Of a stretch of DNA of 64,000 bases, positions 11,813 through 21,655 are shown piece by piece. The notes beneath the pieces are model-generated. The model was not told the DNA's origin, did no database searches, and was given only the letters and a program-made list of their open reading frames with translations. Every line of letters begins with the position of its first letter. Position 1 is the stretch's first letter. The stretch is from an uncultured Gammaproteobacteria bacterium (GTDB lineage: Bacteria; Patescibacteriota; Microgenomatia; Daviesbacterales; UBA10151): the NCBI GenBank assembly GCA_964394855.1, contig CAYMZD010000002.1, positions 131,964-195,963 of the forward strand. The letters run 5' to 3'. A program made the position numbers and the translations under genes.

Positions 11813-12559
11813 ATGGAGATACCTAAAACATTAGATCAATTAAATGAACAGTTAGATGGTTGGTCGGATATGTTAAAAGACCCATTATGGTATCAACAAG
11901 CTATGCCCATACTTTTAGATTGGTGGGAGAATTTCCCCAAGGATGAAACTAGAGAATTATTAAAGGATCGAATTTATCAATATTTTGCGGACAAATTAGA
12001 AAAAGGAGAAATTGTCCTTGGTCGTAAAGGACCAAATTTTGATCAGGAGAGGAAACCTGTTGACACTATCATTATTCATCACAGCAGCAGGAAACCGGGT
12101 GTATCTTGGCAAGAATTATCAGCCATTGGTTTTTTAAGACAATATGTTCATGATTACTATTTATATGATGACGTTTTTGATCAAGATACAAAAGATCAAC
12201 CTATCTGGTCCGGTCATTTTAGAGATGGTATCCAGGTATTTTATGCTTATCACTGGTTGGTTAGGATGAATGGTGAATCAGTTAGGTTGTTGGAGGATCA
12301 CTACTTGGGTTGGCATGCAGGTAATAGAGATGTTAACAGAAGAAGCATAGCTATAGTTTTAGATGGAGATTTTCAAAACAGTGAACCATCCCATCTATCC
12401 TTGGAAGGTGTTGCCAGACTAATGAGGGAACAGTATCCACATATTAAAACTGCCAAAATCTTAGGACATTTAGAAGTAAGTAAAACTGAATGTCCTGGTA
12501 GATTATTTTTACCTGTTTGGAAAAATAAACTACTTTCCAAATTCTTTGAGCCACAATAG
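11813..12559 (+). CDS. N-acetylmuramoyl-L-alanine amidase (Amidase_2/PGRP fold) with N-terminal extra domain
   Basis: IIIHHS...GWHAG...H..ECPG zinc-amidase motif pattern. Confidence 0.6.
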   Translation: MEIPKTLDQLNEQLDGWSDMLKDPLWYQQAMPILLDWWENFPKDETRELLKDRIYQYFADKLEKGEIVLGRKGPNFDQERKPVDTIIIHHSSRKPGVSWQELSAIGFLRQYVHDYYLYDDVFDQDTKDQPIWSGHFRDGIQVFYAYHWLVRMNGESVRLLEDHYLGWHAGNRDVNRRSIAIVLDGDFQNSEPSHLSLEGVARLMREQYPHIKTAKILGHLEVSKTECPGRLFLPVWKNKLLSKFFEPQ

Positions 12560-14162
12560 CATTGAAGTATGATGGATGATAAAATACTAGAGTTACGGGG
12601 TGTAGTTCATCGGTAGAACGCTCGCATGGGGTGCGAGAAGTAGCAGGTTCAATTCCTGTCACCCCGACCAAAAGTGAATCCGCAAGGCTGGCCGGAATTT
12701 GGCTCTGGCTGGGTGGGGTCAGCCAGAGCTCTGCAAAGCCCTGATTATATTTTGGGACAAGCCGCCGATCAGTTAAAAAGAAGTTCGAGCCGACAGTTTT
12801 TGCTCCGATTGCTAAATCGGAGCATGTATTTTTTGCGCGCGCGATTTTTGCGCACGATAGTGCGCTACCAATGAAGTTTTTGAAAGGTTCGAGCCAACTC
12901 GAACCATTTATGTTTATTTGTCCCAATTCTTCATTAATTTTTAATTTTTCTTCGAAAAATTCGTTCTTTTTTGACTTGTAAACTTCGGGTTCAATAATCC
13001 CTTCTAAATATCCATCAAGAAGTTTATTAAGTTTTATATCCATGTCTTTCAGTTCCAACTCCAATTTTTCAATGTTCTCATGAATGGATACAGTTTCTAA
13101 TTTTTTATCTTCCTCTAACCGTTTGTACCAGTCATTAGCCCACTCTTGGGGTAACGCTACATCGTCAATGGCTTTTCTAAATTGGGTTTCTAATTCCGGT
13201 TCTGAAATATATTTTTGAGTGCAAGGTTTTAACTTTTTAGTGCAACGGTAGTAAATATATTCTACAGTTCTATCGGTACCTTTATAATATTTCTTGTGAG
13301 ATTCAGCGGTGATGCTTGCCCCGCACTCTCCGCATTTTATCAAACCCATAAAGGCAAAGTTATATCTTCTTTTTTTGTGTCTGTCTCTAAACTTTAATTC
13401 TTGCTGGACTTTTTGGAATAACTCTTTTGAAATTATTGTTTTATGATTTCCTTCGTGATACTCTCCGTTGTACTCCATAATGCCAACATAAAATCTATTG
13501 GCTAAAATTCTTCTGATTTCGTTTATATGTAATGGCTTATTATTTTTTCTTTTAAGATGAAATTTATGGAGAAACAAAGCAATATCGGTAAATGTTTTGT
13601 TGCCTTCTGCAAATAATTCAAATGCCTTCTTAATTGCTTTTAATTTTTCCGGCTCAACATCTATCCCTCTAGTTTTTGGATTGTTAATATAACCATCAGG
13701 AGCTTTGCCAGGATAAACACCGTTTCGGAGTTTTTGACGTAACCCTCTTTTTACATTTTCCGATAAATTATCCACATAATACTTAGACTGTCCAAAAGCT
13801 ATATTTAACATGAATTTTCCTTGGGGAGTATTTTCAAACCAAGAGGTCGGAAACTTTAGATCAAGCAGTTTTCCGGTATCAAGAAGATAAATTATTTTCC
13901 CGCCATCAATACTATTTCTTGCTAATCGGTCGGGGTGCCAGGCGATAATCCCTCCTATCTGTTGTTTTTCTATCTTCTTTAAAACTTCTGCAAATTTCTC
14001 TCTGCCAGGAACCTTAGCTGTTTTTTCTTCTTCCACAAATTCAGTAATTTCCAAACGTTCTCTTTTTGCGTACTCCTTCAACTCCGCTATTTGAGCAGAG
14101 ATAGATAATATCTGTTTGTCTTTTTCTTCCCGAGATTTTCTGCAATAGGCTATGTATTTCAT
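12444..14162 (-). CDS. Large serine recombinase (resolvase catalytic domain + recombinase domain + zinc ribbon + coiled coil); C-terminal about 107 codons read through IR1, the tRNA and the antisense end of the amidase gene
   Basis: N-terminal YCRKS...Q catalytic motif as in TnpX/Ccr/SpoIVCA-type large serine recombinases, DRLARN region, CGECG...YYRC zinc ribbon, long coiled-coil; no in-frame stop until 12444. Confidence 0.8.
   Translation of the reverse strand: MKYIAYCRKSREEKDKQILSISAQIAELKEYAKRERLEITEFVEEEKTAKVPGREKFAEVLKKIEKQQIGGIIAWHPDRLARNSIDGGKIIYLLDTGKLLDLKFPTSWFENTPQGKFMLNIAFGQSKYYVDNLSENVKRGLRQKLRNGVYPGKAPDGYINNPKTRGIDVEPEKLKAIKKAFELFAEGNKTFTDIALFLHKFHLKRKNNKPLHINEIRRILANRFYVGIMEYNGEYHEGNHKTIISKELFQKVQQELKFRDRHKKRRYNFAFMGLIKCGECGASITAESHKKYYKGTDRTVEYIYYRCTKKLKPCTQKYISEPELETQFRKAIDDVALPQEWANDWYKRLEEDKKLETVSIHENIEKLELELKDMDIKLNKLLDGYLEGIIEPEVYKSKKNEFFEEKLKINEELGQININGSSWLEPFKNFIGSALSCAKIARAKNTCSDLAIGAKTVGSNFFLTDRRLVPKYNQGFAELWLTPPSQSQIPASLADSLLVGVTGIEPATSRTPCERSTDELHPVTLVFYHPSYFNAIVAQRIWKVVYFSKQVKIIYQDIQFYLLLNVLRFWQF
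12596..12670 (+). tRNA. tRNA-Pro (anticodon GGG), CCA encoded
   Basis: Cloverleaf folds by hand: acceptor CGGGGTG/CACCCCG, D stem GTTC/GAAC, anticodon stem CTCGC/GCGAG with loop ATGGGGT (U33, GGG, G37), T arm GCAGG-TTCAATT-CCTGT, discriminator A, CCA. Confidence 0.85.
12665..12767. repeat. IR1 left copy (103 bp), starts inside tRNA-Pro 3' end (CGACCA)
   Basis: Perfect reverse-complement of 14209-14311; contains internal hairpin GCTCTGGCTG-N8-CAGCCAGAGC at 12702-12729. Confidence 0.9.
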
Positions 14163-14208
14163 ACAAGTAAAATTTTTGCGTGTCTTCCCGTTTTTTGTTC
14201 TTTTTAAC

Positions 14209-14395
14209 CGGCGGCTTGTCCCAAAATATAATCAGGGCTTTGCAGAGCTCTGGCTGACCCCACCCAGCCAGAGCCAAATTCCGGCCAGCCTTGCGGATTC
14301 ACTTTTGGTCGAGCTTTACAAAAAAATTCGAACCCGCTTTAAGTCGAATCGGTAGCCCGCCTTCGGCGGGCTTTTGTTCCGCTCGGCCTTCGGCC
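14209..14395. repeat. 187-bp composite repeat block: IR1 right copy (14209-14311) fused to IR2 left copy (14308-14395)
   Basis: Reverse complement equals 21405-21492 joined to 12665-12767 with 4-nt CGAC overlap; includes terminator-like hairpin AGCCCGCC-TTC-GGCGGGCT followed by TTTTGTT. Confidence 0.9.
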
Positions 14396-14659
14396 GAAGC
14401 TCTAAAACTGTCGGCCGAACTCCGCCAAAGGCGGACAAAAAACGCAAAAATTTAATGCACCCCTCGCCAAAGGCGAGGCAAAGAACTTTTCAAAAATTAA
14501 AATGGCCGCTCTGGCGTACTCAAATCCTTGCGAATGTGTCCAAAGCGGCCATTAAAAAACCGAGAGTCAAATTTGAGCACCGTTTTAATATAGCAGGTTA
14601 TAAGAAGTTTTCAACTGAGAGTTTCTGTATCAAAATGCTAAGGTTTTTTTAAACTTTTC

Positions 14660-14899
14660 TTAATGTTCGGTATCTTTTCTCGAAATCGGATCGTTGCTAT
14701 TTATTGTATCTTTGCTTCTAATCTGCCCATGTTGATTTTGAGTAATTAACTCTCCTCCACCATTGTTTTGTAGAACATTTCTTCCGTAATTCTCTGCATC
14801 TCTTTGAGTATCGAAGATACGAGAGGCTCTCTCGGCTCCTTCTTTCTGTGCTTTCCACTGATCACTATCTGGAGATATCCAAATATTTTTACTTGCCAT
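14660..14899 (-). CDS. DUF2188-family small protein (79 aa from internal ATG)
   Basis: MASKNIWISPDSDQWKAQKEGAERASRIFDTQRDAENYGRNV... matches DUF2188 pattern; strong SD AAAGGGGGTGGGG 7 nt upstream of ATG at 14899. Confidence 0.55.
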   Translation of the reverse strand: MASKNIWISPDSDQWKAQKEGAERASRIFDTQRDAENYGRNVLQNNGGGELITQNQHGQIRSKDTINSNDPISRKDTEH

Positions 14900-15833
14900 T
14901 CTTTTCCCCACCCCCTTTAATAAGTTCTTCAATCTTTTTCTTCCAACCGACGCGATGTATTACCCGGGCTTTTTGTAATTTTTCATTCAATATTTCCGCC
15001 TTTGTTTTTTTGGATATCTCTTCCCACAATTCACTGAGCACATAAGTTGCATTACCGTAATACATGCTTTCTAAGACATAGAGCTTGTTTTCTGTAAAGC
15101 CATGCACAATATAACCATGAAATCCTCCAGTCCCGATGGCTCTAAAATCCGGCTTAAGCGCGTTTACGGTTTTCAAACGATAGTAGAGTATTTGCTGATT
15201 TCCCCTTGGCGCACTTTTAACTATTGGCTCTACCTCTTTTCTAAATTTTTCCCATGGCATCTCTCCTTGCGGAAGCACTACCCAGTTGAGTCTTTTTAAA
15301 GGAGTCTTTAGAATTACTTCCAAATTTTCAGTAAAAAATTCACACTCTCCAAAATATTCAAGGAATAAGTTTACAACATGTTTTAAAACTTTATTGTTCT
15401 CTTCTGTTTTTTCTAGTGCTGGTGCAGTTAGTAAAAATATATCTTCCGCATTCAGAGATAGCATAAGCTCAATTGAGGGTGGAGGTATGAAGGAACGAGG
15501 ATATCTTTTGTAAGGAACATCGACAATTTTGGATTGTTCAACTCTATATGGACCATGCCATTCCGTCCAATGCCAATCAATTTGCCTGTAAGCGGTTTCC
15601 ATTGGCGAATCTTTATGTTTAATTATCTTACCTTCTGCATTATACTTACTAATATTTCCAAGCGATGCTGGAAGGATAGATTGTCCTTTTTGATAAGGCT
15701 CTAAAAAACCTAGGCGTTTTAAAGTTGTGGAAAATCTTAAAGGATCAGTAATGCCAATAATAATTTTAGAGCCATTTTGGATATGGCTAATATATGGAGA
15801 TATGTTTCGAATACGCTTTTTCTGTATAATCAT
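14889..15833 (-). CDS. Hypothetical protein (314 aa), no recognisable family
   Basis: Long ORF, divergent from lexA-like gene, co-directional and overlapping by 11 nt with DUF2188 gene. Confidence 0.5.
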   Translation of the reverse strand: MIIQKKRIRNISPYISHIQNGSKIIIGITDPLRFSTTLKRLGFLEPYQKGQSILPASLGNISKYNAEGKIIKHKDSPMETAYRQIDWHWTEWHGPYRVEQSKIVDVPYKRYPRSFIPPPSIELMLSLNAEDIFLLTAPALEKTEENNKVLKHVVNLFLEYFGECEFFTENLEVILKTPLKRLNWVVLPQGEMPWEKFRKEVEPIVKSAPRGNQQILYYRLKTVNALKPDFRAIGTGGFHGYIVHGFTENKLYVLESMYYGNATYVLSELWEEISKKTKAEILNEKLQKARVIHRVGWKKKIEELIKGGGEKNGK

Positions 15834-15912
15834 TTTTATAATAACCGTTTTTCTTAGACAGTAAGAAATCTATACTTGACATTATTATAACAGATGTGGT
15901 AGGATTTACAAG

Positions 15913-15932
15913 GTGGTAAATAATAACCACCT
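15913..15932. promoter_or_regulatory. Inverted repeat GGTGGT-N8-ACCACC immediately upstream of lexA-like start; intergenic region also has three direct copies of ATAATAAC(C)
   Basis: Seen directly; candidate operator or SD-sequestering hairpin in the divergent promoter region 15834-15935. Confidence 0.35.
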
Positions 15933-15935
15933 ATT

Positions 15936-16559
15936 ATGCAATATTTACCCTCAAAAACAGAAAAAGTTTTACAAACTCTTATTCAATTCCAAAACAAAAA
16001 CGGTTACTCTCCTTCGATAACAGAGTTAAAAACTATCGTTGGAAATAAATCCACGCGCGGAATTGTTTTGCAATTAGATAAACTGCAGAAACTGGGTTAT
16101 ATCCAGCGTGAAAAAAACTCGAGGCGGGCAATTAAAATATTACGTAAGCCCATAAAAATTAATAAGGAAACTATGATTAATGTTCCTGTCCTTGGCGAGA
16201 TTAGGGCCGGCTATGGTTCTTTGGCTGAACAAAATATTGAAGGCTATGAAAAGATTCCCCTACTCTTGGCGAAAGGTCAAAGAGATGTCTTCATACTTCG
16301 GGTCAAAGGGACAAGTATGTTAAAAGCGGGCATAAATCCAGGAGATTTAGCCATAATAGCACCACAAAACAACGCTAATAACGGAGACATTGTAATTGCT
16401 TTTGATCCAGATGATGAAACAGCAACGCTAAAAAGATTTAAGCGATTGCAAGATTATGTTATGCTTTTACCAGAAAGCGATGATCCAAGTTATCAGCCTA
16501 AAATCGGAAAACAATTTGTAATACAAGGTAAATTTATAGACTTATTAAGAAAAAACTAA
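15936..16559 (+). CDS. LexA-family repressor (winged-helix DNA-binding domain + S24 peptidase domain)
   Basis: N-terminal LexA DNA-binding domain (GYSPSITELKTIVGNKSTRG...LQKLGYIQRE...RAIKIL), Ala-Gly cleavage site (IRAGYG), catalytic Ser in GTSM and Lys in KRFKR. Confidence 0.75.
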   Translation: MQYLPSKTEKVLQTLIQFQNKNGYSPSITELKTIVGNKSTRGIVLQLDKLQKLGYIQREKNSRRAIKILRKPIKINKETMINVPVLGEIRAGYGSLAEQNIEGYEKIPLLLAKGQRDVFILRVKGTSMLKAGINPGDLAIIAPQNNANNGDIVIAFDPDDETATLKRFKRLQDYVMLLPESDDPSYQPKIGKQFVIQGKFIDLLRKN

Positions 16560-16564
16560 CTCTT

Positions 16565-18463
16565 ATGATTTTTAAACCTGCCATAAATAATTCAAAAAAG
16601 ATTTTCTCAATATACAATTCTCTTTCTTCAAGTGGCTTATCAGATGCTCAAATAATTAGTGCCCTTTTAAATTTGTTGAAGACAAAAAATATTGATAATG
16701 ACCTGACGTTGCTCGTTTTATTTTCTGATCTCTACACAAATCATAATTTAGATTTTATTAGTGTAATAGAATTAATTGGCCTTGCTCACCAAAAAGCTAA
16801 AGAAAAATCCTCCATTTCAGGCACTGATGAAAGAAAACATAATGGGATCTACTATACTAATTATTCCATTGCTAAACGAATAGCCGAAGAAACTCTTTCT
16901 TTTTATGGTAAAGATTTTGATCCTGCCAAAAATAAATTTCTTGAACCCTGTGCCGGAACGGGGATATTTGGGATTGCTTATTTAGATACAATTTTTCAGT
17001 TAGATAAAAAGTATATTTTAAATGCACAAAATATTATAAATAATATGTTTTTTGCTGACATAGACGGAGAAGCTATTGCATTGTTAAAAACAATTATTAA
17101 TCTTTATCTTAAAGCAAAATATTCTGTTAACGCATCAGTACCGGATAAAAATATCTTTATTGGCAACGTCCTATTTAGAAATAATACTGATGGGTCTATA
17201 TCAAAAAATGATCTTACAATTCAATTCAATATAAAAGATGGGTTCGATGTAGTATTAACAAACCCTCCTTACAAATTACTTAAGGCAAATTCAAACAAGT
17301 ATAATGAGGTTACGGACAATTACAAAGATGAGATAACAAAAATATTGGATTTTATTAGAAAACACAATGCTTATAAATTTAATTCAGGTACTTTAAATCT
17401 TTATAAACTTTTTGTTGAAGAAATTCTCGAAAATTATACTAAAAAAGATGGCAAGATAGGATTGCTTATTCCATCTACATTACTTAGTGATAAACAAAGT
17501 TACGAATTAAGAAAAAGAATACTTGAGAATTACTACCTCTCAACAATATATACGATTCCAGAAAAAAATAACTTCTTTTTAGATATTAGCCAAGCATTCT
17601 GTTTTTTTTCCCTAGATAAAAGTAATTCTTCGGGTGAATTAATACTAAAAACAAATGTATCCGATGTGGGAGGGTTTAATAAAGAAAATATATCCGTAAG
17701 CAAAATGCGGATAAGTATGATTTCCACCTTACAGGAAATAATTTCTACCGACAAAATAGGCTGGCAGATCTTAAATAAGATGCACAAAAATAAAAAACTT
17801 AAAGAGATTTCATCTATTACTAATTTAAGAGGCGAACTCGATTTAACTCTGGATAAAAAATTCATCATAAATGAAGGAAGTGAATATAATCTCCTTCGTG
17901 GTAATGGAATAAAGGAGTTTATTTTCAGTAAAGACAATCTATTTGTTGATAATAAATTTATTAACAAATTAAACGGAAAAGCAAAATTTTTATTATCAGA
18001 GAGAATAGTATGCCAACAAATATCAAATATAAATCTTACAAAGAGATTAAAGTTCTCTAAAGTGCCCAAAAATATTGTTTTAGGAAACTCTTGTAATTTC
18101 ATTGTCACAAATTCAGATACTCTATTCTTGGAATCCAATATTAGCCTAGATTATTTACTGGGCGTTCTTAATTCATTTCTCTTAAACTGGCGGTTTCAAT
18201 TAACTAGCTCCAACAATCACATAGGCAACTATGAATTAGACGAACTTCCTTTGGCGATTCCTGACTTAAAACAAAAATCAATAGTAGAGGATTTTGTTGA
18301 TAAACTTGTTGAAGATCCAAACAATAATGAATATAAAGTTAAATTAAATGTTGCAGTATTTGATATATATGGATTAGACCATGAAGAAGCTTTATACATA
18401 TTAGATAAGCATCGAAAAAACGATGTGGCAGAATTAACAGGTAAATATATGCATCAACTATGA
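16565..18463 (+). CDS. N6-adenine DNA methyltransferase, gamma class (motif X - I - IV order), with C-terminal target-recognition region
   Basis: GIYYTNYSIAKRI (motif X), EPCAGTGIFG (motif I), NPPY (motif IV); starts 5 nt after lexA-like stop. Confidence 0.8.
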   Translation: MIFKPAINNSKKIFSIYNSLSSSGLSDAQIISALLNLLKTKNIDNDLTLLVLFSDLYTNHNLDFISVIELIGLAHQKAKEKSSISGTDERKHNGIYYTNYSIAKRIAEETLSFYGKDFDPAKNKFLEPCAGTGIFGIAYLDTIFQLDKKYILNAQNIINNMFFADIDGEAIALLKTIINLYLKAKYSVNASVPDKNIFIGNVLFRNNTDGSISKNDLTIQFNIKDGFDVVLTNPPYKLLKANSNKYNEVTDNYKDEITKILDFIRKHNAYKFNSGTLNLYKLFVEEILENYTKKDGKIGLLIPSTLLSDKQSYELRKRILENYYLSTIYTIPEKNNFFLDISQAFCFFSLDKSNSSGELILKTNVSDVGGFNKENISVSKMRISMISTLQEIISTDKIGWQILNKMHKNKKLKEISSITNLRGELDLTLDKKFIINEGSEYNLLRGNGIKEFIFSKDNLFVDNKFINKLNGKAKFLLSERIVCQQISNINLTKRLKFSKVPKNIVLGNSCNFIVTNSDTLFLESNISLDYLLGVLNSFLLNWRFQLTSSNNHIGNYELDELPLAIPDLKQKSIVEDFVDKLVEDPNNNEYKVKLNVAVFDIYGLDHEEALYILDKHRKNDVAELTGKYMHQL

Positions 18464-19590
18464 TTCATAATCACATAACTTATCCATTGAGTGATCTAGA
18501 TATGCAAATGGTAATAGCCGTGCCACAAGGAGGCAATTGGCGCAATATTCCTCTCGACATTCCTTCAAAAAGACTCGAACAAATCAGAAAATCAGGCGGT
18601 AGAACTACACTGTATGGACGGCTTTCTTGGGATAGTCCAAGCTATACGGTAACTACTTATTTTAATCGTCCCGGAAATGGAACATATGTGCATCCCGAAC
18701 AAAATAGAGTTCTTAGCGCAAGAGAAGCAGCAAGACTACAATCATTTACAGATAGCTTCGTGTTTTCTGGTACAAAAGGAAGCTTGTGTATCCAAATAGG
18801 AAATGCTGTTCCACCATTAATGGCTTATTTTTTAGGTAAACAAATTAAAAAGCAAACAAACACAACTAATGTTGTTGACTTATTTTGTGGTGCAGGTGGT
18901 TTAAGCAAAGGATTTGAATGGGCAGGATATAATATTATTGCTGCAAACGATAACTATAAACAGGCATGCGAAACATATAAAATTAATCACCCACATACTA
19001 TTCTTATTGAAGGAGATATTACTAAAAAGATGGTGAAAGATGCTTTATTCGGAGCTATTAAAGACAAGAAAATAGATATCGTTATTGGAGGTCCTCCTTG
19101 TCAAGGTTTTTCTCATGCAGGGAAGAGGCTAGTAGATGATCCAAGAAATTTTCTTTTCAAAGAATTTGTTGAGATTGTAAAGAAAATAAAACCTAAGGTT
19201 GTTGTATTAGAGAATGTAGAAGGGATTCTAACAATGAATTATGGGAAAAGTTTTGAAAGCATAAAGGAGAGTTTCCGTGAACTAGGGTACAAATTGGATG
19301 GAAGAAAACTACATGCTGTTAAATATGGCGTGCCACAAAAGAGAAAAAGAGTTGTTATGATCGGTGTTTTGGAAGGAGATCCTAGCAAATGTTATCCGGA
19401 AGAGGTAATAAAAAATGAAAATCGATATTTAACTGTTCGGGAAGCAATAGATAATCTACCAGAAATAGTGGTAAATGGTGGTAACCATATTATAAGAAAG
19501 AAAACTAATCCAAAATCTGAATATCAAAAATTCTTAGCAGGCTTAACGGCAATAGAAGATTTTTCAGATTATTTGTCTGCAAGAAGTTAA
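18460..19590 (+). CDS. C5-cytosine DNA methyltransferase with circularly permuted motif order (IX-X then I-IV-VI-VIII)
   Basis: N-terminal SAREAARLQSFTDSF (IX) and QIGNAVPP (X), followed by DLFCGAGG (I), GGPPCQGFS (IV), ENV (VI), QKRKR (VIII), TVREAIDNLP; 4-nt ATGA overlap with upstream MTase. Confidence 0.8.
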   Translation: MIHNHITYPLSDLDMQMVIAVPQGGNWRNIPLDIPSKRLEQIRKSGGRTTLYGRLSWDSPSYTVTTYFNRPGNGTYVHPEQNRVLSAREAARLQSFTDSFVFSGTKGSLCIQIGNAVPPLMAYFLGKQIKKQTNTTNVVDLFCGAGGLSKGFEWAGYNIIAANDNYKQACETYKINHPHTILIEGDITKKMVKDALFGAIKDKKIDIVIGGPPCQGFSHAGKRLVDDPRNFLFKEFVEIVKKIKPKVVVLENVEGILTMNYGKSFESIKESFRELGYKLDGRKLHAVKYGVPQKRKRVVMIGVLEGDPSKCYPEEVIKNENRYLTVREAIDNLPEIVVNGGNHIIRKKTNPKSEYQKFLAGLTAIEDFSDYLSARS

Positions 19591-20756
19591 TAGATAAGTT
19601 TCTGCGATAATTTTTCAGCAACTAATTTAAAAATATTTCTTAGTTCCTCTAAGGCTTCGTTTTCTTTCTCTAATTTTAAATAATTTAGTAATACTTTCAG
19701 TTTTCCACGGATTTCATCGGTCTGCCAATCCTTTAAATGTCGGTTTGTTTTTGAAGAATATTCTAATAGTGATTCAAACGAAATTCTTATATATCTCTTT
19801 GCATTGTTTTTATATTGCTTTTTATTTCCTTCCACCTTAATCATTTCCTTATAGTATCCAGTTTTTGGATCGAAACCATCGAATTTAATAGAATAGTTTG
19901 CGTATTCGGGATGGAGAAAATTTTTAATTAAAAAGTTCTTGTGACCCTTTTGGTAGACTTCTGAAAAAATTGAAAGAACGTAGTGCATGTTTTCTCGCAT
20001 AAGTTTACTTGCCAGTAGAGCATCGGGTTCATTTTTAACATTGTGTTTTATCAAGTCCCATAATGCTTTTGAATGTTCGGAAATTACTTCCTGATTTTTC
20101 TCTTCTTTTATTAAGGCTTGAATATCACCTAATGTCATCCTATTGTTTCTTGCAGAATTGGCGGCTCTCGAAAGTGGCCTAAAACTCGGCCTATGTCTAA
20201 AACCTAATGAAATAGGACCAAGGTGATCAGCGCTTATGTCATTTTTTTGAAACTCTTTCATCAACCAGCTTGCTGCTTTCCAATCTCCATCAGACCAATT
20301 TTCATATGCACGTCTATCCTCGCCATATCTTGAAAGATTGCTTTTATGTCTTCCTTTATCGAATTTACTCCTGCAACAGAGGTTATAACTGTGATAACCA
20401 TCAAGCCTATCGGGAGCATTACTCATTGCTCCTGGACTAAGCCCTCCCTTTTTATTAGGATAAATATAATCAAGTTTCATTGATCTACCACAAATTTGGC
20501 AAGGTTTATCCCCAGTAGGATGAATTGCTCTCGCGGTTTTTGATATCCACGCACCCTCCTTAGGTATTCCAAGTTTTTCTCTCTGCTCATCCCACCATTT
20601 CAACCGGGCTAATCCCATTTCACTACTTCTGGCAACAATCCATCTTATTCCACCATTTTCCTTATACAGAAAAGGCATGCCTCTGTAATTAGGATGATTC
20701 ACAATAAATTTCATGTACTTAATGAAGTTTGGATGCCAAGTCCTTTTAGTTCTCAT
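19587..20756 (-). CDS. Putative restriction endonuclease (Cys-rich, possible HNH-like D-H motif), convergent with the MTase pair
   Basis: CQICG...NLCCRSKF...ADHLGPISLGFRH; stop codons of MTase (19590) and this ORF (19587) overlap; no confident family assignment from sequence alone. Confidence 0.45.
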   Translation of the reverse strand: MRTKRTWHPNFIKYMKFIVNHPNYRGMPFLYKENGGIRWIVARSSEMGLARLKWWDEQREKLGIPKEGAWISKTARAIHPTGDKPCQICGRSMKLDYIYPNKKGGLSPGAMSNAPDRLDGYHSYNLCCRSKFDKGRHKSNLSRYGEDRRAYENWSDGDWKAASWLMKEFQKNDISADHLGPISLGFRHRPSFRPLSRAANSARNNRMTLGDIQALIKEEKNQEVISEHSKALWDLIKHNVKNEPDALLASKLMRENMHYVLSIFSEVYQKGHKNFLIKNFLHPEYANYSIKFDGFDPKTGYYKEMIKVEGNKKQYKNNAKRYIRISFESLLEYSSKTNRHLKDWQTDEIRGKLKVLLNYLKLEKENEALEELRNIFKLVAEKLSQKLIY

Positions 20757-21404
20757 AAAATTTTGACTGCAAAGATTATCGCTAGCAATTATATAGCTTT
20801 TTGCTCCGAAATGCCAGAAAAAATGAATGTTTTTGTTTCTTTTTGGCGGCTCCGCCGCCCCCGCTCGCCTCCTGGGATAATTTCCCTTAAAGGAGGGCTG
20901 CCGTCAGAGAAAATCTCGGAGTTTGGAATTTTCTAAAAACTTTCGGATAGGCAGCCCGACATTCGCGAGCCCCGTGAGAATTACTACATTTTTTTAAAAG
21001 ACGGGGCGAGCCATCGGAATTAGTTGCGCAGTCCCGCCTCGAGGCGGGACAAGCGATAGGAAACAGAAGGGGTACAAATAAGAAAGGCGGGGGCGAAAAG
21101 CGGAATACCCCCGCAACGGCAGGCGATACTAAAACAGAACCAAAGATTACCAGAGACTGTAAAGCGAAAATAGAAAAGCAAAGATATCGGCGAGTCGCCC
21201 CCTAGGGCGACCTCTCGCCCAAAAGCGGGGGTGCCGCTTCCATTATTTTGGGTGGGTGGGTTAATGGGAATTTAGTACAGCCTACATTCTGCATTTTTGT
21301 TTTAAATATTTTTCTGCTAAAATAGGGAGGGTAGGCGGATTATAAATAATAAAAATCGCGCGCATTAAAATACTGAAAGTATTTTGCAAAAAATACTAGA
21401 GCGA

Positions 21405-21492
21405 GGCCGAAGGCCGAGCGGAACAAAAGCCCGCCGAAGGCGGGCTACCGATTCGACTTAAAGCGGGTTCGAATTTTTTTGTAAAGCTCGAC
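21405..21492. repeat. IR2 right copy (88 bp), right boundary of element
   Basis: Perfect reverse-complement of 14308-14395; contains hairpin AGCCCGCC-GAA-GGCGGGCT. Confidence 0.9.
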
Positions 21493-21581
21493 TGAAAGAG
21501 GGTTTCCGTCCGATCAGACCCGGATGTTTTCTAAACTTGACATTTTAGAGTCAATCTTGTTAGTATATAGATACTAAAATC

Positions 21582-21617
21582 TCCTGCGACACCGAAAGGT
21601 CTTCGCAGGATTTTTTT
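21582..21617 (+). terminator. Rho-independent terminator-like hairpin (TCCTGCGAC-ACC-GAAA-GGT-C-TTCGCAGGA + T7)
   Basis: Strong GC stem with GAAA tetraloop followed by TTTTTTT, preceded 40 nt upstream by TTGACA; no upstream + strand CDS. Confidence 0.5.
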
Positions 21618-21655
21618 GACAAAAATTTCCCTCTATTTGATGTATAATCAATTTT

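What the first reader, a model, noticed from the sequence alone, without database searches (positions are those of the whole stretch)
12596..21492. About 8.8-kb element inserted at tRNA-Pro, carrying a large serine recombinase and a complete R-M module
tRNA-Pro(GGG) ends at 12670, and from 12665 (its last 6 nt, CGACCA) the element begins. The next gene, on the opposite strand, has the YxRxS...Q catalytic motif, zinc ribbon and coiled-coil of large serine recombinases (phage-integrase/TnpX/Ccr class). The cargo is a DUF2188 protein, a 314-aa unknown protein, a LexA-like repressor, two MTases, a putative REase and a 900-bp GC-rich noncoding stretch. Core housekeeping genes (recA, recX, rny) resume after 21.6 kb. 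The element ends are marked by perfect long inverted repeats rather than the short direct repeats usual for integrase islands, which is an unusual architecture.
Basis: partly seen in the sequence, partly recalled or inferred. Interest (0 to 1): 0.75.

Follow-up and report, generated by a model that had tools for sequence, protein, structure and literature searches.

The report
tRNA-targeting serine-integrase element with internal attP
This 8.8-kb stretch is a mobile element inserted at the end of a tRNA-Pro gene, and it belongs to a large family in Patescibacteria, apparently undescribed, whose members keep a second, inverted copy of their own attachment site plus two conserved structured RNAs.

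Summary

The repeats are not terminal inverted repeats. Each element end pairs with one half of a single internal 187-bp site, S (14209-14395). S is the exact reverse complement of the joined element ends. It is therefore a full, inverted attP copy lying in the LSR 5' leader. The true ends are attL and attR, sharing a short core (CGAC).

About 60 further loci, from separate MAG and metagenome contigs of many Patescibacteria lineages, show the same layout at more than 15 tRNA species with unrelated cargo. This rules out an assembly artefact.

The P arm mimics the tRNA T-loop (GTTCGAA) but sits 4-5 bp further from the core. That matches the known attP/attB half-site rule for serine integrases.

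The backbone also holds two covariation-supported RNAs with no Rfam match: a pseudoknotted leader upstream of the LSR, and a ~430-nt RNA next to attR.

Not obtained: an empty site, a circular form, or the function of S.

Verdict: a new variant of a known kind, and clearly interesting.

The parts
12596..12670 (+). tRNA-Pro(GGG). Its 3' half is the B-type half-site of attB. The gene stays intact after insertion.
   Evidence: ARAGORN; Rfam RF00005, 60.7 bits; junction alignment.
12665..12668 (+). attL core CGAC (tRNA positions 71-74). It is identical in attL, S and attR, so the crossover lies within it.
   Evidence: Sequence; three-way alignment.
12665..12767 (+). X arm (P' side of attP). On the minus strand it encodes LSR residues about 466-499. 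It is 100% complementary to 14209-14311.
   Evidence: the repeat finder I1.
12444..14162 (-). Large serine recombinase ORF. The conserved part is 12768-14162. The last ~73 codons (12444-12664) are accidental read-through of the antisense tRNA and the amidase 3' end.
   Evidence: Pfam; PHROG 95 integrase, 5.7e-79; homologue tails; stop-codon statistics.
14209..14395 (+). Site S: a complete inverted copy of the attP region (X' 14209-14311, core GTCG 14308-14311, Y 14308-14395). On the + strand it carries the native LSR tail ...SLLVELYKKIRTRFKSNR, the stop at 14353-14355, and a terminator-like hairpin at 14354-14372.
14466..14597 (-). nc1: a pseudoknotted RNA motif (P1, P2 and a 14-bp P3) at the start of the LSR leader. 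It is preceded by an extended -10 type promoter-like site (14587-14614).
   Evidence: Promoter scan; nhmmer hits in 74 loci; 98.1% of cells paired, 14 of 20 pairs with double changes, 0 of 500 shuffles reach the observed values; no Rfam hit.
14660..14932 (-). DUF2188 protein (PADLOC candidate defence gene PDC-S16). Second gene of the 314-aa operon.
14889..15833 (-). 314-aa protein from a widespread family with no annotation. Transcribed divergently from LexA.
   Evidence: No hit in Pfam, NCBIfam, PADLOC, PHROGs or PDB sequences; at least 715 homologues; AF2 pLDDT 89.7; no informative fold match.
15936..16559 (+). LexA-type repressor (LexA DNA-binding domain plus S24 peptidase).
   Evidence: Pfam; TIGR00498, 150.7 bits against a cut-off of 110.95.
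16565..18463 (+). Alw26I/Eco31I/Esp3I-family N6-adenine DNA methyltransferase.
   Evidence: Pfam Eco57I, N6_Mtase and TaqI_C; TIGR02987, 313 bits, below its cut-off of 353.5.
18460..19590 (+). C5-cytosine DNA methyltransferase, circularly permuted (motif X GNAVPP comes before motif I FCGAGG).
   Evidence: Pfam PF00145, 248.7 bits in two stretches; sequence; collinear with the C-terminal half of the fused PADLOC model PDLC03237.
19587..20756 (-). Type IIS restriction endonuclease of the Alw26I/Eco31I/Esp3I family.
   Evidence: PF09665, 398 bits; TIGR02986, 388 bits, below its cut-off of 443.9; PADLOC REase_II, 7e-121.
20843..21277 (+). nc2: a conserved structured RNA of ~430 nt (52 predicted pairs) just inside the Y' arm.
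   Evidence: Conserved in 16 loci; RNAalifold -68.6 kcal/mol on the + strand against -57.3 on the - strand; 95.1% of cells paired, 20 pairs with double changes, 0 of 500 shuffles reach the observed score; no Rfam hit.
21405..21492 (+). Y' arm (P side of attP) with the T-loop mimic GGGTTCGAAT. It ends in the attR core CGAC (21489-21492).
   Evidence: the repeat finder I2.
21493..21655 (+). B' host flank. It holds a terminator-like hairpin with a T-run (21507-21526), plausibly the original tRNA-Pro terminator. It also holds a promoter-like site and a leader conserved upstream of NYN genes.

Best explanation
SHOWN
- Window 12665-21492 is an integrated member of a large family of Patescibacteria mobile elements built around a large serine recombinase (LSR).
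- The left junction is tRNA 3' end, then core, then X. The right junction is Y', then core, then host DNA.
- An internal site S is X', core, Y. This is exactly the reverse complement of Y'-core-X, the attP that a circularised element would carry.
- The LSR frame stays open through X up to the core. attP therefore lies about 14 codons before the native stop, and insertion swaps the native tail and terminator for whatever lies antisense to the tRNA.
- The P arm carries a GTTCGAA T-loop mimic 4-5 bp further from the core than the real T-loop in the tRNA.

INFERRED (mechanism)
- A circular form integrates by LSR-catalysed attP x attB exchange at the discriminator/CCA end of a tRNA gene. The T-loop serves as the zinc-ribbon-domain motif, and the acceptor end serves as the inner specificity region and core.
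- The free form would carry two inverted ~190-bp attP copies bracketing the LSR gene.
- After insertion, the split copy gives the two long inverted-repeat pairs.

INFERRED, less secure (role of S)
- S lies between a conserved promoter with a pseudoknot leader (nc1) and the LSR start codon.
- It could act as an operator for autoregulation. It could also act as a 5'-UTR segment complementary to the mRNA 3' end. Either way, LSR expression would depend on the integration state, in the manner of lambda int/sib.
- The ~100-bp repeats also make the LSR module and the cargo module invertible.
- Because S is an intact attP, it can capture a second attB.

CARGO
- An Alw26I-type type IIS R-M system and a portable module of LexA, the 314-aa protein and DUF2188.
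For: - Anatomy: and the three-way junction alignment for the window plus 33 loci. This was extended to 63 loci with both repeat pairs.
- Recurrence in GTDB genomes: 57 of 80 loci have an antisense tRNA within 260 nt after the LSR, and 61 of 80 have the flanking repeat. Repeat identity has a median of 98%, whereas X arms from different loci share a median of 31%.
- Recurrence in metagenomes: most of 80 further contigs show the same layout.
- The same tRNA-Pro(GGG) site in another MAG carries a different cargo: a LexA-MTase fusion, a HindIII-like REase and an HTH protein.
- Half-site offset: the Y motif is 4 or 5 nt further out than the tRNA T-loop in 25 of 26 loci. B-versus-Y identity peaks at shifts +4 and +5 (0.44 and 0.37, against a background of ~0.25). 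This matches the rule stated in PMC11722253.
- The ORF is open up to the core in 55 of 57 loci. A few database homologues and loci carry native tails ...Y.KIRT.F....
- A terminator-like hairpin follows the native stop in Y. A terminator-like hairpin in B' sits 15 nt past the core.
- nc1 lies ~300-480 nt upstream of the LSR on the same strand in nearly all of 74 loci.
- Rearrangements: the cargo is inverted in L071. An LSR module sits between two convergent tRNA-Glu genes in L046. There are nested insertions.
- No conserved cargo protein exists that could be a dedicated directionality factor.
Against: - No empty tRNA-Pro site was found in a relative. Gene order around the NYN gene is not conserved.
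- No circular contig was found among 80 metagenome loci, and there was no hit in viral contigs. Excision and the two-attP circle are therefore inferred, not seen.
- The right half-sites (X versus B') show no shared motif at any offset. This departs from the usual four-half-site symmetry.
- Canonical LSRs do not recombine attP with attL or attR. The observed inversions may therefore be RecA-driven rather than LSR-driven.
- The conserved 'native tail' cannot be separated from the DNA motif it overlaps, so its protein function is unknown.
- Transcription start sites and RNA roles rest only on consensus matches and covariation.
Confidence: 0.75

Rival explanations
1. Two separate, abutting modules rather than one element. 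One is an IS-like LSR module bounded by inverted X repeats. The other is a non-autonomous cargo module bounded by inverted Y repeats. Each moves or inverts on its own, and S is merely where they touch.
For: - Modules occur in other combinations. An LSR module sits alone between two tRNA-Glu genes in L046.
- L089 has an R-C-R chain, and L131 has an S-R-S arrangement.
- The cargo is inverted on its own in L071.
- Some minimal cargo modules are only 556-800 nt long.
Against: - In every locus, X', the core and Y form one continuous site sharing its 4-11 nt core with both outer junctions. Chance abutment would not give this.
- Serine recombinases excise between directly repeated sites, not inverted ones.
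- The cores are often non-palindromic, for example TCAC, so site polarity is fixed.
- The Y arm carries the T-loop mimic with the P-type offset, as expected for the partner half of one attP.
Confidence: 0.12
2. A domesticated invertible switch, not a currently mobile element. The LSR or RecA flips the recombinase and cargo segments to vary expression of the R-M system or the LSR (phase variation).
For: - The perfect 100-bp inverted repeats are kept identical within a locus while diverging between loci.
- Both orientations of the cargo (L071) and of the LSR relative to S occur (native-tail proteins, L088).
Against: - One orientation dominates. An antisense tRNA follows the LSR in 57 of the first 80 loci, against only 2 loci (L046, L050) with a tRNA on the 5' side.
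- Closely related LSRs (84-90% identity) sit at different tRNAs: Pro GGG, TGG and CGG, and Glu TTC.
- Cargo is unrelated between loci.
- Nested insertions occur inside other LSR genes.
- All of these indicate mobility.
Confidence: 0.08
3. Assembly artefact: a chimeric or fold-back join in a metagenome-assembled genome created the inverted repeats.
For: - The window comes from a MAG.
- Many related contigs break exactly at the repeats.
- Two Logan contigs with the identical amidase gene end inside the tRNA.
Against: - The same layout, with locus-specific repeat sequences, recurs in ~60 loci from many contigs of different projects and assemblers. These include complete genomes CP011210 and OZ246414.
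- Contig breaks at 100-bp inverted repeats are the expected consequence of real repeats.
Confidence: 0.02
4. A decayed prophage or phage satellite that uses a serine integrase.
For: The LSR matches PHROG 95 'integrase', the DUF2188 protein matches PHROGs of unknown function, and a LexA-like repressor is present.
Against: - No structural, packaging or replication genes occur in the window element or in the conserved backbone.
- There were no relatives in 2.9 million viral contigs.
- Elements can be as small as ~2.5 kb.
Confidence: 0.03

Closest known systems
Serine-integrase integrative elements and prophages (phiC31, Bxb1, A118/LI, SPbeta SprA)
   Same: Same three-domain LSR. Short core at the crossover. 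attP and attB half-sites distinguished by a 4-5 bp offset of the outer motif (PMC11722253). Hybrid attL/attR after insertion.
   Different: The target is the 3' end of tRNA genes, recognised through a T-loop mimic. attP lies inside the integrase ORF. A second, inverted, full attP copy sits in the integrase leader. No conserved directionality-factor gene exists. The right half-sites show no shared motif.
Tycheposons of Prochlorococcus (cargo-carrying tRNA-targeting elements; bioRxiv 10.1101/2020.12.28.424599)
   Same: Small cargo-carrying elements that seed variable islands next to specific tRNAs in streamlined genomes. The integrase clade determines which tRNA is used.
   Different: 474 of 501 tycheposons use tyrosine recombinases and are flanked by partial-tRNA direct repeats. 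Here an LSR is used, there is only a 4-11 nt core, and there are long inverted repeats to an internal site.
Lambda int/sib retroregulation, and SSV1-type integrases whose attP lies inside the int gene (from general knowledge, not tested here)
   Same: The position of attP relative to the integrase 3' end makes the integrase transcript differ between the free and integrated states.
   Different: Those systems use tyrosine recombinases and have no inverted spare copy. The RNA-level effect here is only inferred.
Yeast 2-micron plasmid (FLP with FRT sites inside 599-bp inverted repeats; general knowledge)
   Same: The inferred circular form would carry two long inverted repeats, each holding the recombinase target, bracketing the recombinase gene. 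Repeat copies stay identical.
   Different: That system uses a tyrosine recombinase, is a non-integrating plasmid, and uses inversion for copy-number amplification. No replication function is known here, and the circle itself has not been observed.
LSR transposases and cassette recombinases (TnpX of Tn4451, CcrAB of SCCmec, XisF)
   Same: These are the best NCBIfam matches (CcrB 2.8e-30, XisF 3.6e-30). They are LSRs that move or excise small elements, some without a separate directionality factor.
   Different: All scores are far below the equivalog cut-offs (105 bits against 900 and 375). The targets differ, and none has the internal inverted site architecture.

Membership tests
Large serine recombinase (serine integrase) | N-terminal resolvase catalytic domain with the serine nucleophile in a YxRxS context | tested here: met
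   PF00239, E = 4e-22, residues 4-149; sequence AYCRKS at residues 5-10.
Large serine recombinase (serine integrase) | Recombinase domain (DBD1) followed by a zinc-ribbon domain (DBD2) | tested here: met
   PF07508, 1.1e-15 (residues 171-257); PF13408, 6.8e-11 (residues 271-332).
Large serine recombinase (serine integrase) | Coiled-coil inserted in the zinc-ribbon domain | not tested
   The region after residue 332 is charged and repeat-like in sequence, but no coiled-coil or structure prediction was run.
Large serine recombinase (serine integrase) | The outer (DBD2) motif lies 4-5 bp closer to the centre in attB than in attP half-sites | tested here: met
   Left half-sites: the offset is 4 or 5 nt in 25 of 26 loci and identity peaks at +4/+5. 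Right half-sites: no motif is detectable at any offset, so the feature is met on one side only.
Large serine recombinase (serine integrase) | Catalyses attP x attB recombination; the reverse reaction needs a directionality factor | not testable with these tools
   Needs biochemistry. No conserved cargo ORF could serve as a family-wide factor.
Site-specific integrative element (genomic island at a tRNA) | The insert is bounded by junctions that share a core with the element's own attachment site | tested here: met
   Three-way identity of attL, S and attR over 4-11 nt in 39 distinct sites.
Site-specific integrative element (genomic island at a tRNA) | Presence/absence polymorphism (an empty site) in relatives | tested here: inconclusive
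   Look-ups of exact and homologous flank proteins and an all-against-all flank search found no empty site. NYN gene context differs between relatives.
Site-specific integrative element (genomic island at a tRNA) | Same backbone with different cargo and different targets across genomes | tested here: met
   More than 15 tRNA species are used. Cargo ranges from 556 to 8695 nt with no shared protein.
Site-specific integrative element (genomic island at a tRNA) | A circular excised intermediate | tested here: inconclusive
   No circular contig among 80 metagenome loci and no viral-contig relatives. Reads were not available.
Transposon or IS with terminal inverted repeats | The two outer ends are inverted repeats of each other | tested here: not met
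   12665-12767 and 21405-21498 are not reported as a pair. Each pairs only with the internal site.
Serine invertase switch (Hin/Gin/Pin type) | A small (~190 aa) serine recombinase with a C-terminal HTH acting on short inverted sites | tested here: not met
   The protein is a three-domain LSR of about 500 aa. The repeats are ~100 bp and contain an attP-like site.
Alw26I/Eco31I/Esp3I type IIS restriction-modification system | Family endonuclease together with both an adenine and a cytosine methyltransferase | tested here: met
   PF09665 at 398 bits, Eco57I/N6_Mtase, and PF00145 at 249 bits. The NCBIfam 'exception' models TIGR02986 and TIGR02987 score 388 and 313 bits, just below their cut-offs of 443.9 and 353.5.
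Any Rfam 15 RNA family (for nc1 and nc2) | Covariance-model score at or near the family gathering threshold | tested here: not met
   Best scores are 9-20 bits against thresholds of 35-153.

The most novel reading that the evidence does not exclude
The internal inverted attP copy, with or without the two conserved RNAs, is a functional device that replaces a protein directionality factor. Two forms of this are possible. In one, the element senses its own integration state through the swapped LSR 3' end and the 5'-3' RNA complementarity. In the other, two inverted attP sites serve for natural cassette exchange or reversible insertion at tRNA genes, possibly with an RNA cofactor. Either would be a new way of controlling serine-integrase directionality in a phylum that lacks classical conjugative and phage-borne systems.
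Probability: 0.2. Interest if true: 0.9.

Novelty: new variant of a known kind. Interest (0 to 1): 0.72.

Why it matters
- **Gene flow in Patescibacteria.** These bacteria have tiny genomes and few recognised mobile elements. This family has more than 7,600 LSR homologues at E <= 1e-10. It looks like a major carrier of defence cargo such as R-M systems into tRNA-adjacent islands.
- **Integrase targeting.** Serine integrases are prized genome-engineering tools, and how they choose targets is a live question. This is a natural series of closely related enzymes retargeted among more than 15 tRNA genes, with a fixed T-loop anchor and a variable acceptor-end core. It is a ready-made data set on how specificity is reprogrammed.
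- **Directionality control.** The attP inside the ORF, the inverted spare attP in the leader, and the lack of any conserved directionality factor make control of direction directly testable in a minimal system. Some members consist of the LSR plus less than 1 kb.
- **New RNAs.** Two RNA motifs with strong covariation support and no Rfam match are new candidates for regulatory or structural RNAs tied to recombination.

Tried and rejected
**Empty site**
- Exact look-ups of the NYN and amidase proteins returned only the source MAG and two Logan contigs that break inside the tRNA.
- NYN homologues at 81-86% identity sit in other gene contexts: ftsZ-NYN and Clp_N-NYN-GatC.
- An all-against-all search of B' flanks across ~170 loci found only duplicate contigs and nested insertions.

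**Free form**
- The viral-contig scan found no relative.
- No metagenome contig had terminal overlaps.

**Ideas rejected**
- A palindromic core allowing either orientation: many cores, such as TCAC, have no palindromic dinucleotide.
- A selected antisense-tRNA extension of the LSR: stop-free read-through occurs in 24 of 57 loci, against 19 and 25 in the other two frames.
- A conserved cargo ORF as directionality factor: no cargo protein cluster spans more than 5 loci, and the largest is a spurious ORF inside nc1.
- The ~900-aa 'homologues' as a new domain architecture: they are fusion ORFs from one element inserted inside another LSR gene.
- L050 as a clean flipped isomer: it is a decayed, rearranged copy.

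**No result**
- Literature: seven full-text searches found no description of this family or architecture. The library is limited to open-access papers.

Full report
**Source and observation**

The window is contig JACQIZ010000003.1 of a Candidatus Daviesbacteria (Patescibacteria) MAG, GCA_016198205.1.
- tRNA-Pro(GGG) lies at 12596-12670.
- A 572-aa minus-strand ORF at 12444-14162 has Resolvase, Recombinase and Zn_ribbon_recom domains.
- The cargo holds a DUF2188 protein, a 314-aa protein with no family, LexA, two DNA methyltransferases and an RE_Alw26IDE endonuclease.
- NYN, Nudix, recA, recX and RNase Y genes follow.
- Two inverted repeats stand far above background. 12665-12767 pairs with 14209-14311 (103 nt, 100%). 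14302-14395 pairs with 21405-21498 (94 nt, 98%). The next longest is 35 nt at 71%.

**What the repeats are**

The two internal arms abut and overlap, so 14209-14395 is one 187-bp site, which I call S.
- Its left half is the reverse complement of the left end of the element (X).
- Its right half is the reverse complement of the right end (Y').
- S is therefore the exact reverse complement of the junction Y'-X that would form if the element circularised. It is a complete attP in inverted orientation.
- The outer junctions are ordinary hybrid sites. attL is the tRNA 3' end, then CGAC, then X. attR is Y', then CGAC, then host DNA.
- The ends thus share a short direct core: CGAC, with 8 of 10 nt matching. 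They are not inverted repeats of each other.
- The host side of attR carries a terminator-like hairpin and T-run 15 nt past the core. This is plausibly the tRNA's own terminator.
- It is followed by a promoter-like site and a leader that is 86-88% conserved upstream of NYN genes in other Daviesbacteria.

**Not an artefact, not unique**

The LSR has more than 7,600 homologues at E <= 1e-10, and hundreds share 60-90% identity.

Among the 80 best loci from GTDB species genomes:
- 57 have an antisense tRNA within 260 nt after the LSR, and 11 more end before that point.
- 61 have the ~100-nt repeat flanking the LSR.
- 34 also have the second repeat pair enclosing the cargo.

A further 80 metagenome contigs show the same picture, and 63 loci overall have both repeat pairs.

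The lineages include Davies-, Gottesman-, Levy-, Collier-, Woese-, Ames-, Beckwith- (complete genome), Shapiro-, Magasanik-, Giovannoni- and Peregrinibacteria. The targets include tRNA-Pro, Gln, Glu, Leu, Lys, Ser, Trp, Gly, Val, Phe, Asp, Thr and Arg.

In every locus examined, S equals Y-arm + core + X-arm, and the same core appears at both outer junctions. The core is 4-11 nt long.

A second MAG has the element at the same tRNA-Pro(GGG), next to recA, but with a different cargo: a LexA-MTase fusion, a HindIII-like endonuclease and an HTH protein.

Repeat arms are a median 98% identical within a locus. X arms from different loci share only a median 31% identity. The copies therefore evolve in concert.

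**Attachment-site logic**
- The Y arm carries a conserved GTTCGAAtTTTTTcGTAAA, which mimics the tRNA T-loop GGTTCGAATCC.
- In 25 of 26 loci this motif is 4 or 5 nt further from the core than the real T-loop.
- Identity between the tRNA arm and the Y arm peaks at offsets +4 and +5 (0.44 and 0.37, against ~0.25).
- This is the rule that distinguishes P-type from B-type half-sites of serine integrases (PMC11722253). It supports calling Y'-X attP and the tRNA end attB.
- The right half-sites (X and the host flank) share no detectable motif at any offset. Recognition therefore appears one-sided, which is unusual.

**The recombinase gene**
- The frame stays open through X up to the core in 55 of 57 loci. 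attP therefore lies inside the ORF.
- In S, read in the other direction, the frame continues for ~14 codons (…SLLVELYKKIRTRFKSNR), then reaches a stop and a terminator-like hairpin.
- A few database homologues (about 6 of the 120 listed) and loci carry such native tails (…Y.KIRT.F…). Most of the rest end in translations of antisense tRNA.
- Read-through of the whole antisense tRNA is at chance level: 24 of 57, against 19 and 25 in the other frames. The 572-aa length is therefore accidental.
- NCBI did not call this gene at all.
- The native tail's conservation coincides with the DNA motif (ATT CGA ACN encodes I-R-T). Its role as protein is therefore undecided.

**Conserved RNAs**

The 'noncoding' stretches are backbone parts.

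nc1 (14466-14597, minus strand):
- It starts right after an extended -10 type promoter-like site.
- It folds into P1, P2 and a 14-bp pseudoknot helix.
- On 29 sequences, 98.1% of cells pair and 14 of 20 pairs show compensatory changes. No shuffle out of 500 reaches the observed values, and slid controls fall to 27-45%.
- It occurs in 74 loci, nearly always ~300-480 nt upstream of the LSR on the same strand. S therefore lies inside the LSR leader.

nc2 (20843-21277, plus strand):
- It has 52 predicted pairs, 95.1% of cells paired, and 20 pairs with compensatory changes.
- Its G-U pairs and folding energy favour the plus strand.
- It occurs in 16 loci, always just inside Y'.

Neither RNA matches any Rfam 15 family.

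**Cargo**
- The R-M system belongs to the Alw26I/Eco31I/Esp3I type IIS family. Its separate m6A and permuted m5C methyltransferases correspond to the two halves of a fused family member.
- LexA is transcribed divergently from the 314-aa gene plus DUF2188. The same three-gene module occurs elsewhere in a Patescibacteria chromosome with no LSR within 4 kb.
- The 314-aa family has at least 715 members. A confident model (pLDDT 89.7) has no informative match.
- Across loci, no cargo protein is conserved.

**Rearrangements**
- In L071 the cargo is inverted between its repeats.
- In L088 and similar cases the LSR reads into an intact X-Y junction.
- In L046 the LSR module lies between two convergent tRNA-Glu genes. 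This is the product expected if S recombined with a second attB.
- In L089 and L078 one element sits inside another LSR gene near codon 120. This creates the ~900-aa 'homologues'.

**Mechanism**

Shown:
- The junction anatomy.
- Its recurrence across lineages.
- The half-site offset.
- The ORF/attP overlap.
- The position of S in the leader.
- The existence of both module orientations.

Inferred:
- A circular form with two inverted attP copies bracketing the LSR gene.
- Integration by attP x attB exchange at the tRNA end.
- State-dependent LSR expression, because insertion removes the native tail and terminator and leaves a leader segment complementary to the mRNA 3' end.
- Inversion through the ~100-bp repeats, whether by RecA or by the LSR.

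The purpose of S is the main open point.

**Comparison and novelty**
- It works like a serine-integrase element, and the protein passes the LSR domain tests.
- It is not a TIR transposon, not a Hin-type switch and not a prophage.
- It resembles tycheposons in ecology but not in enzyme.
- Seven full-text searches found no description.
- I file it as a new variant of a known kind.

Noticed in passing
window 14466-14597 (- strand): A pseudoknotted RNA motif (P1, P2, 14-bp P3) with very strong covariation and no Rfam match. It sits directly after a conserved extended -10 promoter-like site at the start of the LSR leader and is found in 74 related loci. It looks riboswitch-like or attenuator-like; no ligand or role is known.
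   Followed up: yes
window 20843-21277 (+ strand): A ~430-nt structured RNA with long-range helices and three covarying hairpins. It is conserved in 16 related elements, always just inside the Y' arm. No Rfam match; function unknown.
   Followed up: yes
L089 1-9724; also L078, and proteins P0010-P0015, P0017, P0070: The ~900-aa 'recombinases' in public protein sets are fusion ORFs. A complete element is inserted inside another LSR gene near codon 120, and its LSR reads in frame into the host LSR. One sub-lineage therefore targets the LSR gene itself rather than a tRNA.
   Followed up: partly
window 14660-16559; L175 3239-5183; L176 2364-4308: LexA (S24) transcribed divergently from a ~314-aa protein plus DUF2188 is a conserved three-gene module. 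It is also found outside LSR elements. The DUF2188 partner matches the PADLOC candidate defence family PDC-S16.
   Followed up: partly
[not shown]
   Followed up: yes
L005/L010 6916-9560: The cargo of the sister element at the same tRNA-Pro encodes a single protein fusing the LexA DNA-binding domain and S24 peptidase to an N6/N4 methyltransferase. It lies next to a HindIII-like endonuclease and an HTH protein. LexA-like domains recur with R-M cargo (also L025, L060).
   Followed up: no
window 21551-21618; L090 9906-9973; L092 352-425; L173 895-1077: A noncoding block with a promoter-like site, a hairpin (CTCCTGCG...CGCAGGA) and a T-run is 86-88% conserved upstream of NYN-domain genes in several Daviesbacteria, even where the neighbouring genes differ. 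It may be a leader or a small RNA.
   Followed up: no
window 12444-14162; L001/L002 gene tables: The source annotation has no gene call for the LSR. Most homologues in public protein sets carry C-terminal tails that are translations of antisense tRNA (…GIEP…STDELHP). This will mislead length-based or C-terminus-based analyses of this family.
   Followed up: yes
L046 9796-11582: An LSR module without cargo lies between two convergent tRNA-Glu genes (TTC and CTC). This is the product expected if the internal attP copy recombined with a second attB, implying a chromosomal inversion or a cassette-exchange event.
   Followed up: partly
window 18460-19590: The C5-cytosine methyltransferase is circularly permuted. 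Motif X (GNAVPP, around residue 113) precedes motif I (FCGAGG, around residue 141) and motif IV (PPCQGFS).
   Followed up: partly
record titles of L008, L010, L012, L025 and others: Many contigs carrying this Patescibacteria-type element are titled 'uncultured Gammaproteobacteria' (binchicken co-assemblies), although their gene content matches candidate-phyla-radiation genomes. The taxon labels are probably wrong.
   Followed up: no
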